NCBI GenBank assembly: GCA_051362555.1
Contig: CM120640.1
Location: 56,026,788-56,090,787 of the forward strand
Length of the DNA: 64,000 bases
DNA from: Lingula anatina
Taxonomy: Eukaryota; Animalia; Brachiopoda
Direction of reading: 5' to 3'
Below, in pieces: positions 42,107 to 47,000 of the stretch. The notes under the pieces are model-generated. The model saw only the letters and a program-made list of their open reading frames with translations. It searched no databases and was not told the origin of the DNA. Numbering within the stretch: the first letter of the stretch is position 1; each line of letters opens with the position of its first letter. The position numbers and the translations under genes were made by a program.

Positions 42107-42329
42107 AGTTCCGTCGAAGAAGCATGTCGGTTCATGAGGTAAGCGAGCAGACGATGTTGTTTTGTATTTTTCTATATTTGCACAGGATTCGTGCAATCAG
42201 GATGCTTATCTATCTTTTAAGTAGCATGGTAATGATGCATTTCACAATGTAACTATCCAGATATTACCCAAATACCTATCCAACATCCATATTATGCTTT
42301 TTCTCTGGACACTTCGAGTGCCTTAATTG

Positions 42330-42397
42330 TTGCCTCAGTTTTCGGCCGTAATTACATGTATCGCAGTAAGTAGACAAAAAGCCGAAAACTGAGGCAA
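42330..42397. repeat. Mini inverted-repeat element (17 bp perfect arms) in the intron upstream of ADAT2
   Basis: ttgcctcagttttcggc ... gccgaaaactgaggcaa. Confidence 0.8.
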
Positions 42398-42559
42398 GCT
42401 ACCTAGATAAGCCAGCTTTCACTAAATTCACCTTCTCAGTTGGAGTGTATTTGGGCTAAAACTGCTCTAGATCTACATAATTGCTATTCTAAGATAACAT
42501 CCGTTAAATTGTTTTTTTTTTTTGCCTTTTTACAGCCTTAAAAATCAGTGTTTAATGCC

Positions 42560-43072
42560 ATGTCCAAAACCTCAGAATATTGGATGCAGTTTGCTTTACA
42601 ACTAGCAGAAGAAGCTCTGACTCAAGGTGAAGTTCCAGTTGGGTGTATATTTGTCTACAAAGATCAGTGCATTGCTACAGGACGCAATGAAGTAAATGAA
42701 ACTAAAAATGCAACACGACACGCAGAACTTGTTGCAGCAGACAGAGTGATTGCTTGGTGTCAGAAAAACAAAAAGACAGCAGCAGAGGTTTTTGAAAATT
42801 CCTCACTTTATGTTACTGTTGAACCTTGTGTTATGTGTGCTGGGGCTCTAAGAGTGCTGAAAGTTCCTCTTGTTGTTTTTGGATGTGCAAATGACAGGTT
42901 TGGAGGATGTGGTTCAGTATTAACAGTTTGTGAAGATGATTTACCCAACTTTGGATTGAAATTCCAATGCATCACTGGCCTGTTGAAGGAGAAGGCTATT
43001 GTACTTTTGAAAGAGTTTTATAGAAATGAAAATCCCACTGCACCAGAGGGCAAGAAAAAGATAAAGATCTGA
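42560..43072 (+). CDS. ADAT2: tRNA-specific adenosine deaminase 2 (A34-to-I), uninterrupted coding exon
   Basis: [24 protein letters not shown]...[16 protein letters not shown]...[15 protein letters not shown]...[17 protein letters not shown]...[14 protein letters not shown]; intact HAE/PCxxC catalytic motifs. Confidence 0.96.
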
Positions 43073-44016
43073 TTTAAAAGAGTGTCTGTGATATTAAATA
43101 TTGCAAAACTGTAGGATTTTCAAGATCATGTGACGTGCAATGTATGTATGTATGTATTTGTTTATTTGTTATTTATTTGTACTGTTTATTTGTTAAATAT
43201 AAATTCAGCATCACTGTCAGATTTGTTTTGCCTGTCCATGCATTTGTTTATCATCTGTATTTAGCCCACATACACAGTAGCTGTAATATTGTACAGCAAA
43301 GTGTGCTTGTTTGGCAGACACCTGCCGCAATTAAATGCCATTTTATCAGAGCAAAATCATGACCCATTTTGCTTCACATAACCTTCTCAGGGCAAATAAC
43401 ATTTAACAAGAAAATTACTGGTGCAAAGGTATAAATTTTACACTCACTATGTCTTCCAAAAATGAAGCAAATTGCATTCTATGACATCATGACAGTGACA
43501 ACATAGTAGATGGGATTGCTACATTTAGATCTATACATATACTTTTATTGTGAGAGACTACAGTATGTAGGTCATTCAAGGATAAGTGGGTTTGCATCCT
43601 TGTGCAAATGTGTTGGTCATGTTTTTGGCCCAAGTAATACTTCACTTCTGTTGCATTGATGTGACATGATGATGAAATGTGTCTAAGTCTATATAAATTG
43701 TGCTTTCAGCATAAGGTGATATCATATTTTTCAGTGCAGGGTATATGAAATAGCAGAGGAAACTACAGAGAATTAACTGGTGAGTAATATTTCCTATCTG
43801 TACTTTAAACATTTAAACAGCTCTAGATACATTGGGCAGTATCATTTGTTTTAAAGTATGTATGTTATATCTCATATAACAAAGTGTTGTTGTGATAAAT
43901 TATTTTTATCCTTATTTAATAGTTTCACTTAAAATAAAATAAAGTGAATTACAATGTAGTTGGCTTGCACTTCACTTGTATACAGCTGTGTACATTTTCA
44001 TCAGGGATCAAAAGGC

Positions 44017-47000
44017 ATGGAACTTCTGTCTAGAGCACAGTTGCTAGTTCCAAGGTTCCTCATAACCAAGTCAGTCAAGACAAGCTTGAAAGATATCTCT
44101 GCCCAGGAATATCTGTCATCCAGGAAATATGTTACCTTTCCTATGAATTGTGACAATCCTGTCAGAAAACTTTATAAGCTACTATCAGGTGCATTCTCAA
44201 AGGATCCCCCAGAGGATGGAGACAGTTCTGGCAGTAAACCTTTGATATCTCCTATCCGAACACAAAATTCTGGGCGAAAACGCTTAGTTATTCTGGGAAC
44301 AGGTTGGGGCGGATATAGTGTTTTGAAGAACATAGATAAAAAGCTGTATGATGTCATAGTGGTCAGTCCAAGGAACCATTTCTTGTTCACGCCATTGTTA
44401 TGTAGTACCACTGTTGGAACTCTAGAATTCAGGTAAAAACAATTAGTCATGGTGAAACTTCACTTTTATTTAAAGAAAAGAAATTTGATTTTTGTTCAAA
44501 CTACTTTGCAGAGTTTGATGGATACAAGGAACAATTGCTTACCAGCTTAAAGTGAGTGTATATCATATTATTGTATACCCCTGTCAATAGATTTAGATAG
44601 TTACGCGTATAGCCTGAAGGTATAGTGTGCAACCAAGTTTTGATACAGAACACATTGTATTTCAGGTCAATCATTGAGCCAGTCAGGAACAGTGGCTTTA
44701 GAAAATCGGACCATTTTCATTTGGCAAGAGCAATCAAACTAAATTTTGAAGAGAAAACTTTGGAATGTGAAAGTTCACTGAAACCTGGGTCTAAATATGT
44801 ACTGGAATTTGACAAGCTAGTGATTGCTGTGGGTGCCAGAAGCAATGCATTTAATGTCCCAGGTGTTGAGGAACATGCTATTTTTCTGAAGGTAGGTAAA
44901 CTGATACACACACACACACACACACACACACACACACACACACACACACACACACACACACACACACACACACACACACACACACACACACACACACACT
45001 GGTTATCTGACCCCATTGCATGAATGAATTAATTGTAGTCAAAATATCTCTTGTGCATAGTTGTTCCTTCCCCATAGTGCACAAGGTTGTTGTTTCGTGT
45101 ATGAATAGTAACAATGAGACATTCTGAAATGATGAAAAATTCAAGTATGATTTGTATTGATATTATATATATCATGACACTGATTCCCTTTAACCCTTAA
45201 CATACATTTTATATTTCTGTCATTTATTCAATGCCTGATATGGTGGGACTACAATGAACCATGTGAAATGATAGTCAATGATACTCAATGGGAACTCATT
45301 AGATAAGACACCCACATAATACATGCCTTGTTATCAGAATCTTAAGCATGTTATCCTTTATTTAGTATTTTTTGTTAATAAAAGCCTAGTTTATGCAGGT
45401 TCATTGTATCTGTTAAATTCTTTTCTGTATTGAAATTTGTTATACAATTACTATGAAATTGCCAATATAATATGTTCACTTTCTGCTGTCATTCATTTCA
45501 GGAAATTGTACATGCTCAAAGAATCCGTAGAAGAATAATAAGTAACTTTGAACTTGCTCTGCAACCACACATTTCACCAGCCGAGAAACAAAGACTTCTG
45601 CATACAGTCATTGTTGGTGGTGGTCCAACAGGAATAGAATTTGGGGCAGAACTCTATGATTTCATTAAGACAGTATGACAGCTTTTCTTGTTAAAAAAAT
45701 AATGTATAAGTCACTAATATGCACAAATATTATTTTGTTTTTTCGATATATTATAAAACAAATGACAATAATTTACTCTTTGCCAATTTACTACTGATTG
45801 CAACTTCACTGAAGTAAAATTAATGCCAGAGAAACCCATGAGATAGAAATGCTTAGAAGCATATAAACCTTGGAGTGGTTTAGTTTAGTTTGTGTTGGTA
45901 TCTTATTCTATTTTACCAAACAGTTCTGTAATTTCATTTTAATTAGCTAAAACTTACTTTTTCAGGATGTTTCTCGCCTTTACTTGAATACAAAAGCCGA
46001 AATTCAGACCACACTTGTTGAATCTCAGCAAATTTTGGCTTCTTTTGATAAAAGACTACAAGCATATGCAGAAAGGAAAATTAAGGAAAGGCCAAATTTT
46101 CACTTGATCAAATCAAATGTAACAGGTACTAGCAATATTCACTGATATATAGAGAGAATATTCTCATGCATCATTTGACTTTTTCCTTAAATGTGTTATT
46201 TAATTTGAACTTTGTCTTTCTGTGTTAGATTGTTTACTTCTATAGTATCCTGCTGGGGATTTTGCCTAGTAGATAAATGTAGCATCAGGGGAGGTATTCA
46301 CTCAATGATATAACATCACAGAGTGAGAGTTCGTCACTGAAAGCTCTGTTGTGGACAAGTCTAGATGACAACTAGACAGAACCATCAGCATGACACTAAA
46401 ATGAATATATTTCTGTATTGTCTTTCTGTGTTGCTACGTATGATAATCCAAATCTCATCCATCCCAACTGGTATGACTCTATGAGAATTATTAAAGACAA
46501 AAATAACAGACATAATATGTAGGTTCGATATTTGGTCAGTTAAGACTGCTTTTAAATTTGCCAGTCTCAAGTGATATTTTACAACTTAAAGGGATAATAA
46601 CTCTTCGTTTTGGCCAAAAAATGAATTTTCCTGGAGTCAACAACAATTTTCCCGTACTTAACAATGGTTAATGAATCCATTTTTACATTCAAAGTTAGTC
46701 CCTGGTTTTTTTCTAAAAGGTTTGGTTTTTTGTTAAAATCTCTTAAGAGATTATAACTGAGTACAGCCATCAATGGAGGTCACGTGATCTGAAGACAAGC
46801 TCAGATATCAGAATAATAGCTATAACTGCCATTTTTGTGGTAAAACAGAATGTATTATATTTCTATGAGTTGTTCACAATGTTTTTATTGTGAAATATAG
46901 ATATCATACGAAGAGTTATTATCCCTTTAAACTTACAAGGGGGATGAACTTCTAAGACAGTATGTTGAGTACATTGACATTCCTGACATTTTGTCTCTTT

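What the first reader, a model, noticed from the sequence alone, without database searches (positions are those of the whole stretch)
42124..44030. ADAT2 nested in the first intron of an alternative NADH dehydrogenase gene, apparently sharing one promoter and first exon
Seen in sequence: only one promoter-like element (42062-42106) precedes both genes, and a short exon ends ATG TCG GTT CAT GAG|gtaagc (42124-42138). Spliced to the acceptor at 42535, it reads MSVHEP* (6-codon uORF) just upstream of the ADAT2 ATG at 42560. Spliced to the acceptor at 44004, the same ATG is in frame with NDH-2 ([19 protein letters not shown]...). A further strong donor at 43780 (ctg|gtgagt) allows either a small non-coding cassette exon (~43735-43779), which would shift initiation to Met 44017, or one bicistronic ADAT2+NDH-2 mRNA. 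Inference: a splice-site switch could trade production of a tRNA wobble-editing enzyme against a respiratory bypass enzyme, and could change the NDH-2 targeting peptide.
Basis: partly seen in the sequence, partly recalled or inferred. Interest (0 to 1): 0.85.

Follow-up and report, generated by a model that had tools for sequence, protein, structure and literature searches.

The report
Ancient ADAT2–NDH-2 read-through gene pair
In this brachiopod a tRNA-editing gene sits just ahead of a respiratory bypass gene, a pairing that accession numbers suggest is also kept in molluscs, and the RNA reads suggest the two are likely joined in one spliced messenger rather than being alternative products of a shared first exon.

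Summary
Both genes are real: intronless ADAT2 (42560-43072) and an 8-exon alternative NADH dehydrogenase (44017-49564, identical to a Lingula anatina protein). RNA confirms exon 1 spliced to ADAT2 (12 reads, 2 runs) and 43779>44005 (39 reads, 6 of 7 runs). Neither exon 1>44005 nor exon 1>43735 was listed, so 'nested gene, splice switch, longer targeting peptide' is not supported. Poly(A) runs have zero depth at 43147-43374, then reads start exactly after the acceptors at 43709 and 43734. The tool dropped two joints at the masked repeat that holds a GTATGT donor (43142). I infer, without seeing the junction, a spliced ADAT2+NDH-2 read-through mRNA, alongside NDH-2 starts inside that intron. The pair looks old: all 13 molluscs checked have both genes on one contig (7 with consecutive accessions), and locus L001, a non-mollusc animal, has the same three-gene layout with a 159-nt gap. 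ADAT2 is not depleted of AUGs, so leaky scanning is unlikely. The upstream promoter is bidirectional, shared with a minus-strand gene. New member of a known kind.

The parts
41945..42067 (-). First exon of a divergent zinc-finger-like gene of no named family (5' end approximate)
   Evidence: Joint 41461>41945, 46 reads in X1, opposite strand; only weak Pfam zinc-finger hits below cut-off; homologous exons upstream and divergent in L001
42062..42120 (.). CpG-rich bidirectional promoter (TGACGTCA, two ATCGAT) shared by ADAT2 and the divergent gene
   Evidence: CpG o/e 0.94-1.26 at 41500-42500 against 0.0-0.5 at 42500-50000; transcripts leave it on both strands
42121..42138 (+). Short exon 1 (transcribed from at least 42121), donor GAG|GTAAGC
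   Evidence: Loose-end consensus at 42534 equals its 3' end, X2 8 reads, X3 4 reads
42124..42541 (+). 6-codon uORF MSVHEP* across intron 1; two further out-of-frame uATGs (42134, 42555) overlap the ADAT2 start
   Evidence: translation untested
42139..42535 (+). Intron 1 (5' UTR of ADAT2)
   Evidence: Zero depth at 42192-42439 in 4 of 4 runs; junction reads
42560..43072 (+). ADAT2 coding sequence, 170 aa, intronless, HAE54 and PCVMC89 motifs
   Evidence: Pfam PF00383/PF14437; human ADAT2 3dh1 E 2e-67; motifs
43093..43098 (+). Weak poly(A) signal ATTAAA, 44 nt before the donor; may end some ADAT2 mRNAs
   Evidence: Only hit among 11 signal hexamers between the stop and 43141; use not shown
43142..43734 (+). 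Inferred intercistronic intron: donor AAT|GTATGT (43142, or 43146/43150) inside a TATG repeat; acceptors ending 43709 and 43734
   Evidence: Indirect: 2 joints dropped at the masked repeat 43133-43181, zero depth after it, read pieces starting exactly at 43735 and 43710
43396..43730 (+). Zone of likely NDH-2-only transcript starts inside the inferred intron, with TATATAAA at 43690-43697
   Evidence: Graded depth 6 to 27 over 43612-43731 and 5 molecules beginning at 43606 in X7; graded depth in X8, single fragments from about 43396 in X1 and X3
43735..43779 (+). Small non-coding exon (long form from 43710), with a 2-codon uORF at 43745; donor CTG|GTGAGT
   Evidence: Joint to 44005 in 6 of 7 runs; ATG census
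44017..49564 (+). NDH-2 (alternative, type II NADH dehydrogenase), 8 coding exons, 496 aa
   Evidence: The exon chain translates exactly to P0121; yeast Ndi1 and Plasmodium NDH2 at E 1e-62 to 1e-65

Best explanation
ADAT2 and NDH-2 are same-strand neighbours, and transcripts from the bidirectional promoter likely run past ADAT2's weak poly(A) signal and are likely spliced from a donor about 69 nt after the ADAT2 stop into the NDH-2 leader, giving a two-gene mRNA, while NDH-2 likely also has its own starts inside that intron. Shown: exon 1>ADAT2, the small exon>44005, both reading frames, the zero-depth gap in poly(A) runs. Inferred: the 43141>43735 and 43141>43710 junctions; competition between the ATTAAA signal and that donor; that ADAT2 is the frame translated from the two-gene mRNA and most NDH-2 protein comes from the downstream-start mRNA, because 18 AUGs precede the NDH-2 start. 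The linkage would persist because ADAT2 borrows NDH-2's 3' end and NDH-2's own promoter lies inside the read-through intron.
For: (1) One search dropped 2 joints at the only masked repeat in the stretch (43133-43181), which holds AAT|GTATGT. (2) Longest short side of the 43779>44005 joint is 44 letters in X2 and X3 and 69 in X4; read as upstream pieces these start at 43735 and 43710, the first bases after two AG acceptors, without the two-letter AG extension that exon-1 reads showed at 42534. An upstream exon ending in T fits. (3) Of 21 reads gained between 43732 and 43741 in X1-X3, at least 11 are not joined to 44005, yet 0-4% of laid reads run on unlike the stretch. With size selection, own-start and exon-1-cassette models predict 0.4-9% such reads and the read-through model 34-38%. 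(4) ADAT2 depth holds up to the mask (about 11, 22, 16) and the small exon carries 6, 12, 18 reads at 43741. (5) L001 has ADAT2 and NDH-2 159 nt apart with no AATAAA or ATTAAA and a predicted intron CTG|GTATGA, CTAAC, TAG between them. (6) 13 of 13 molluscs checked have both genes on one contig, 7 with consecutive accessions or locus tags. (7) NCBI lists at least 4 accessions for the same 496-aa protein, which fits several UTR forms (structures not seen).
Against: The junction was never displayed, and the tool calls dropped rows 'most false'. The 2 dropped loose ends could be poly(A) tails after ATTAAA 43093. NDH-2 depth exceeds ADAT2 depth in X1 (29-35 vs 7-12), X4 (7-11 vs 3-5), X7 and X8. 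With a lenient fragment model the own-start rival is only weakly excluded (P 6e-5 to 0.024; 0.009-0.14 if mates are counted once). X2 needs no unjoined reads (5 joints, 4 gained). The side of 69 in X4 is near the maximum a read allows and may be chance. TCAGT at 43731-43735 resembles an initiator (motif recalled). Owenia, Ptychodera and Antedon carry the two genes on different contigs, and Lineus has them 1264 accessions apart on one chromosome. Strand and distance in molluscs were not seen.
Confidence: 0.68

Rival explanations
1. Two separate tandem genes: ADAT2 is polyadenylated near 43115-43135, NDH-2 starts only at its own promoter (TATA 43690, initiator-like TCAGT 43731), and the linkage is inherited synteny.
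For: Zero depth at 43147-43374 in X1-X3; ATTAAA plus a GU-rich tract; graded starts and NDH-2 depth well above ADAT2 in X7 and X8; no AUG depletion in ADAT2.
Against: Does not explain the unjoined reads confined to 43735-43779, the exact match of piece starts to two acceptors, the two dropped joints, or the 159-nt gap with a predicted intron in L001.
Confidence: 0.2
2. One reading: exon 1 is shared, ADAT2 is nested in NDH-2's first intron, and exon 1 splices to 44005 (adding MSVHEGSKG) or to a 43735 cassette exon.
For: Frame is open; human ADAT3 and SCAMP4 are listed as a promoter-sharing pair (PMC2568002), so the design exists in this enzyme's family; the P0121 cluster has a second member that the look-up did not show.
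Against: No such joint in 4 runs laid with exon 1 in the stretch. The only genomic loose end at 44004 matches exon 43767-43779. A cassette would give exon-1 overhangs on about 90% of reads at 43735 and none was listed, though the same overhang was listed at 42534. The NCBI protein starts at 44017.
Confidence: 0.07
3. An operon resolved by spliced-leader trans-splicing at the 43709/43734 acceptors.
For: Sharp starts at acceptors; tight conserved spacing; trans-spliced operons occur in chaetognaths (search listing only).
Against: A leader would appear as a loose end at 43710 or 43735; none was listed in 7 runs, and the loose end at 42534 is genomic exon 1.
Confidence: 0.04

Closest known systems
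Drosophila dicistronic loci Adh-Adhr and stoned (PMC2776167, passages and reference list)
   Same: Two complete reading frames on one mRNA without trans-splicing; short spacer (126 or 151 nt here).
   Different: Here the partners are unrelated, the spacer is built by splicing, and the first frame keeps 10 out-of-frame and 2 in-frame AUGs. Translation of the second frame is not shown.
Green-algal bicistronic loci read by leaky scanning (PMC11892635, passages)
   Same: Bicistronic arrangement kept over several hundred million years.
   Different: Those have a weak ORF1 start context and few upstream AUGs; ADAT2 has GCCATG and no AUG depletion (10 vs 9.0 expected in Lingula, 10 vs 9.8 in L001).
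Human promoter- and first-exon-sharing pairs CPNE1/RBM12 and ADAT3/SCAMP4 (PMC2568002, passages)
   Same: A short non-coding first exon heads a compact gene with a larger gene downstream; involves a subunit of the same tRNA deaminase.
   Different: The defining junction, shared exon to the second gene skipping the first, was not seen here.
ADAT2/Tad2 and type II NADH dehydrogenase (yeast Ndi1, Plasmodium NDH2)
   Same: Ordinary intact members by sequence.
   Different: Nothing unusual in the proteins apart from a long 93-residue leader before the first GxGxxG in NDH-2 (30-82 in 8 relatives).

Membership tests
ADAT2/Tad2 catalytic subunit | HxE and PCxxC zinc motifs with catalytic Glu; closest solved structures are ADAT2 | tested here: met
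   HAE at 54, PCVMC at 89; 3dh1 E 2e-67 against bacterial TadA E 1e-24 to 1e-19
Type II (alternative) NADH dehydrogenase | Two GxGxxG Rossmann motifs, AQxAxQ/R motif, NDH2 C-terminal domain (motif list recalled) | tested here: met
   GTGWGG 94, GGGPTG 253, AQVAER 403; PF22366; Ndi1 E 1e-62
Nested gene sharing first exon (CPNE1/RBM12, ADAT3/SCAMP4 type) | First exon spliced to the host gene, skipping the nested gene | tested here: not met
   No 42138>44005 or 42138>43735 row in 7 runs; minor use below the listing threshold not excluded
Bicistronic mRNA without trans-splicing | One mature mRNA holds both complete reading frames | tested here: inconclusive
   Strong indirect read pattern, junction rows masked; no long reads
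Bicistronic mRNA without trans-splicing | Both proteins are translated from that mRNA | not testable with these tools
   Needs ribosome profiling or reporters
Leaky-scanning bicistron | Weak first start and few AUGs upstream of the second frame | tested here: not met
   18 ATGs upstream of 44017 on the inferred mRNA; no depletion against synonymous shuffles
Spliced-leader operon | Non-genomic leader at the 5' end of the downstream mRNA | tested here: not met
   No such loose end at 43710, 43735 or 44004; low depth
Conserved microsyntenic pair | Adjacent in distant genomes, same order and strand | tested here: inconclusive
   Order and strand seen in DNA for L001 only; adjacency in molluscs inferred from accession numbers

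The most novel reading that the evidence does not exclude
An ancient spiralian bicistronic mRNA, kept from the mollusc-brachiopod ancestor without trans-splicing, from which both the tRNA wobble-editing enzyme and the respiratory bypass enzyme are translated, the second by reinitiation or internal entry on a spacer assembled by splicing, with a U1-versus-poly(A) switch setting how much NDH-2 accompanies ADAT2.
Probability: 0.25. Interest if true: 0.78.

Novelty: new member of a known kind. Interest (0 to 1): 0.52.

Why it matters
Two-gene mRNAs are thought rare in animals that lack trans-splicing, and the searches found none described for molluscs or brachiopods. A pair kept across phyla gives a defined test case for what holds unrelated genes together, and for how a second frame could be translated behind a long, AUG-rich first frame. 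It also gives a handle on the control of animal NDH-2, an enzyme of possible importance in burrowing and intertidal animals (physiological role recalled, not tested). In practice, gene-level expression counts for either gene in these animals may be mixed.

Tried and rejected
No whole genome is held for this window, so ADAT2 paralogues and genome-wide splice-site statistics could not be checked. The run search listed no indexed RNA holder, only same-label raw-read runs. After I first read the step at 43735 as a plain transcription start (note) and changed my reading on the dropped joints, piece starts and unjoined reads (note). Stop-codon read-through from ADAT2 into NDH-2 is rejected: the frame matches via 43735 but an in-frame TAG follows at about 43112 (read's sequence). 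Exon-1 extension leaves the charge of the first 30 residues unchanged (5 basic, 2 acidic either way), and MSVHEGSKG has no obvious match in the relatives' N-termini (by eye). Matching contig lengths between the ADAT2 and NDH hit lists (by eye) found no unnamed transcript contig carrying both. Of 80 metagenome loci only L001 had an NDH-2 match; most of the rest are distant deaminases at 27-48% identity, and L002, L003 and L072 (53-58%) had none within the DNA held, so they are misses. The joint 43765>44002 (CA..AT, 3 reads, X7 only) is treated as a misplacement in a diverged stock. Fused ADAT2-NDH-2 proteins were not searched for (length-limited searches, cap spent). Paper searches for 'alternative NADH dehydrogenase'+'ADAT2' and 'tRNA-specific adenosine deaminase 2'+'NADH dehydrogenase'+'oyster' gave 0; searches listed nothing on this locus by title or abstract start. 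Earlier-findings look-ups gave nothing relevant. No fold or complex prediction was run, as no binding is claimed.
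Full report
What the genes are. The window is animal DNA of about 34% GC. The ORF 42560-43072 is an intact, intronless ADAT2 (Pfam; human ADAT2 structure E 2e-67; HAE and PCVMC). Eight downstream exons, 44017-49564, translate exactly to P0121, a 496-aa protein that NCBI names probable NADH dehydrogenase of Lingula anatina and that matches yeast Ndi1 and Plasmodium NDH2. 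It starts at Met 44017.

RNA, what is shown. Seven of the 9 listed runs were laid, about 6% of the reads for X1-X5 and about 25% for X7 and X8. X7 and X8 are a diverged stock, mostly 90-99% alike. Exon 1 splices to ADAT2: loose ends at 42534 have the exon-1 3' end as consensus (X2 8 reads, X3 4 reads). The donor at 43780 is used: 39 joint reads in 6 of 7 runs, plus 3 short overhangs in X1 that match 43767-43779. No row shows exon 1 joined to 44005 or 43735. Exon 1 lay inside the stretch for 4 runs and would have shown as a loose end. Rows need 3 reads at 2 starts, so a rare isoform is not excluded. The promoter at 42062-42120 also drives a minus-strand gene (joint 41461>41945, 46 reads in X1). 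In X1-X3 depth is zero at 43147-43374, so a single long exon 42536-43779 is not the main form. X4, X5 and X8 have low cover (0-2 per strand) of parts of 43184-43600.

RNA, what is inferred. The tool masks the TATG repeat at 43133-43181 and reports that it dropped 2 joints and 2 loose ends there (1 and 1, where a second repeat was also masked). It warns that most such rows are false. Four things suggest these are real. First, the repeat holds a donor, AAT|GTATGT at 43142, of a type that this gene uses elsewhere (ACA|GTATGA, CAG|GTATGG). Second, the longest short side of the 43779>44005 joint is 44 letters in both X2 and X3 and 69 in X4. Read as upstream pieces these begin at 43735 and 43710, the first bases after acceptors TTTTCAG and CTTTCAG. 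Exon-1 reads extended two letters into the AG at 42534; these did not, so the upstream exon does not end in G. Third, reads rise from 2, 8, 5 at 43732 to 6, 12, 18 at 43741 in X1, X2, X3. At least 11 of those 21 gained reads (X1 4 of 4, X2 0 of 4, X3 7 of 13) are not joined to 44005, yet almost none runs on unlike the stretch (0, 0.04, 0.02). Their other part must lie elsewhere in the stretch, or they are short. Simulations with size selection give 34-38% unjoined reads for read-through splicing, 0.4-3% for an own start at 43733-43737 and 3-9% for an exon-1 cassette. A lenient model that keeps very short end fragments gives 33-41%, 15-30% and 23-35%, so the strength depends on the library, which I could not see. 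The cassette model also predicts exon-1 overhangs on about 90% of these reads; none was listed. Fourth, ADAT2 depth holds up to the mask (about 11, 22, 16) and is of the same order as the small exon's.

Against a pure two-gene model: NDH-2 depth exceeds ADAT2 depth in X1, X4, X7 and X8. In X7 and X8 reads climb gradually over 43600-43730, inside the inferred intron, with 5 molecules beginning at 43606 in X7, and a TATATAAA sits at 43690. So NDH-2 likely has its own starts as well. ATTAAA at 43093 may end part of the ADAT2 mRNA. NCBI's 4 or more accessions for one 496-aa protein fit several UTR forms; I did not see those models, so the junction may already be present in the annotation.

Conservation. 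Both proteins were traced by accession in 17 other species. In all 13 molluscs they share a contig. Seven have consecutive numbers (Haliotis rufescens, H. cracherodii, H. rubra, Patella caerulea, Littorina, Mya, Saccostrea echinata), 4 are 5-50 apart (Batillaria, H. asinina, S. cucullata, Dreissena), and 2 come from different annotation releases and say nothing (P. vulgata, Ostrea). Of 4 non-molluscs, Lineus has one chromosome but 1264 numbers between, and Owenia, Ptychodera and Antedon have different contigs; only one NDH cluster per species was checked. Accession order is a proxy and gives no strand or distance. Direct DNA comes from L001, 1 of 80 metagenome loci. It has the divergent gene's exons on the minus strand, an intronless ADAT2 (57% identical) with an acceptor just before its ATG, and the NDH-2 ATG on the same strand 159 nt after the ADAT2 stop. 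That gap has no AATAAA or ATTAAA (one AATACA) and has a predicted intron: CTG|GTATGA at 5051, CTAAC at 5118, TAG at 5142 or 5161. In a single-gene tree L001 groups with two unnamed proteins outside the molluscs, near Lineus and Lingula with weak support.

Mechanism. On the inferred mRNA the spacer is 126 nt (via 43735) or 151 nt (via 43710), holds two tiny uORFs, and 18 ATGs precede the NDH-2 start. ADAT2 is not depleted of out-of-frame ATGs in Lingula or L001, unlike algal leaky-scanning bicistrons (PMC11892635, passages). I therefore take ADAT2 as the product of the two-gene mRNA and the downstream-start mRNA as the main source of NDH-2, with reinitiation or internal entry possible, as a reference title reports for the Adh-Adhr spacer (PMC2776167, passages and references). 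That a 5' splice site can suppress a nearby poly(A) site, and that a stop over 50 nt before a junction can trigger decay, are recalled, not tested.

Literature. Nine searches found no paper on this pairing; the library lacks most subscription journals. The Lingula genome paper (PMC4595640) was searched for five terms only and has no hit for operon or synteny in its main text; its supplements were not read and may hold synteny lists.

Verdict. Observation partly confirmed, headline not supported, and a better finding in its place: a deeply conserved ADAT2-NDH-2 pair with a likely spliced read-through mRNA. New member of a known kind; interest 0.52.

Noticed in passing
window 38900-42067, minus strand; L001 1-657: The divergent gene has strongly conserved zinc-finger-like exons (71% and 86% identical between window and L001) with no Pfam family above cut-off; it is a third member of the conserved cluster.
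   Followed up: partly
window 42124-42560: The ADAT2 leader carries three upstream ATGs; two open a frame that overlaps the ADAT2 start (24 and 16 codons), which could damp ADAT2 translation.
   Followed up: partly
runs X7, X8 over window 41200-44895: Runs under the same species label are mostly only 90-99% alike to the window and use the NDH-2 5' region differently; possibly a cryptic species or distant population.
   Followed up: no
window 44017-44295: The NDH-2 leader before the first GxGxxG is 93 residues, longer than in 8 relatives (30-82), with a second Met at residue 43; many X7/X8 differences fall here.
   Followed up: partly
window 44432, 44525, 44661: X7 shows loose ends of non-window sequence at both ends of NDH-2 intron 2, which suggests an extra exon or inserted element in that stock.
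   Followed up: no
window about 46650-46940 and 48690-49010: Two similar copies of a roughly 300-nt element lie in NDH-2 introns, seen by eye.
   Followed up: no
L002, L003: Two more animal-like contigs carry an intronless ADAT2 with no NDH-2 match in the DNA held (1.4 kb in all past the match start for L002, 10 kb each side for L003).
   Followed up: partly
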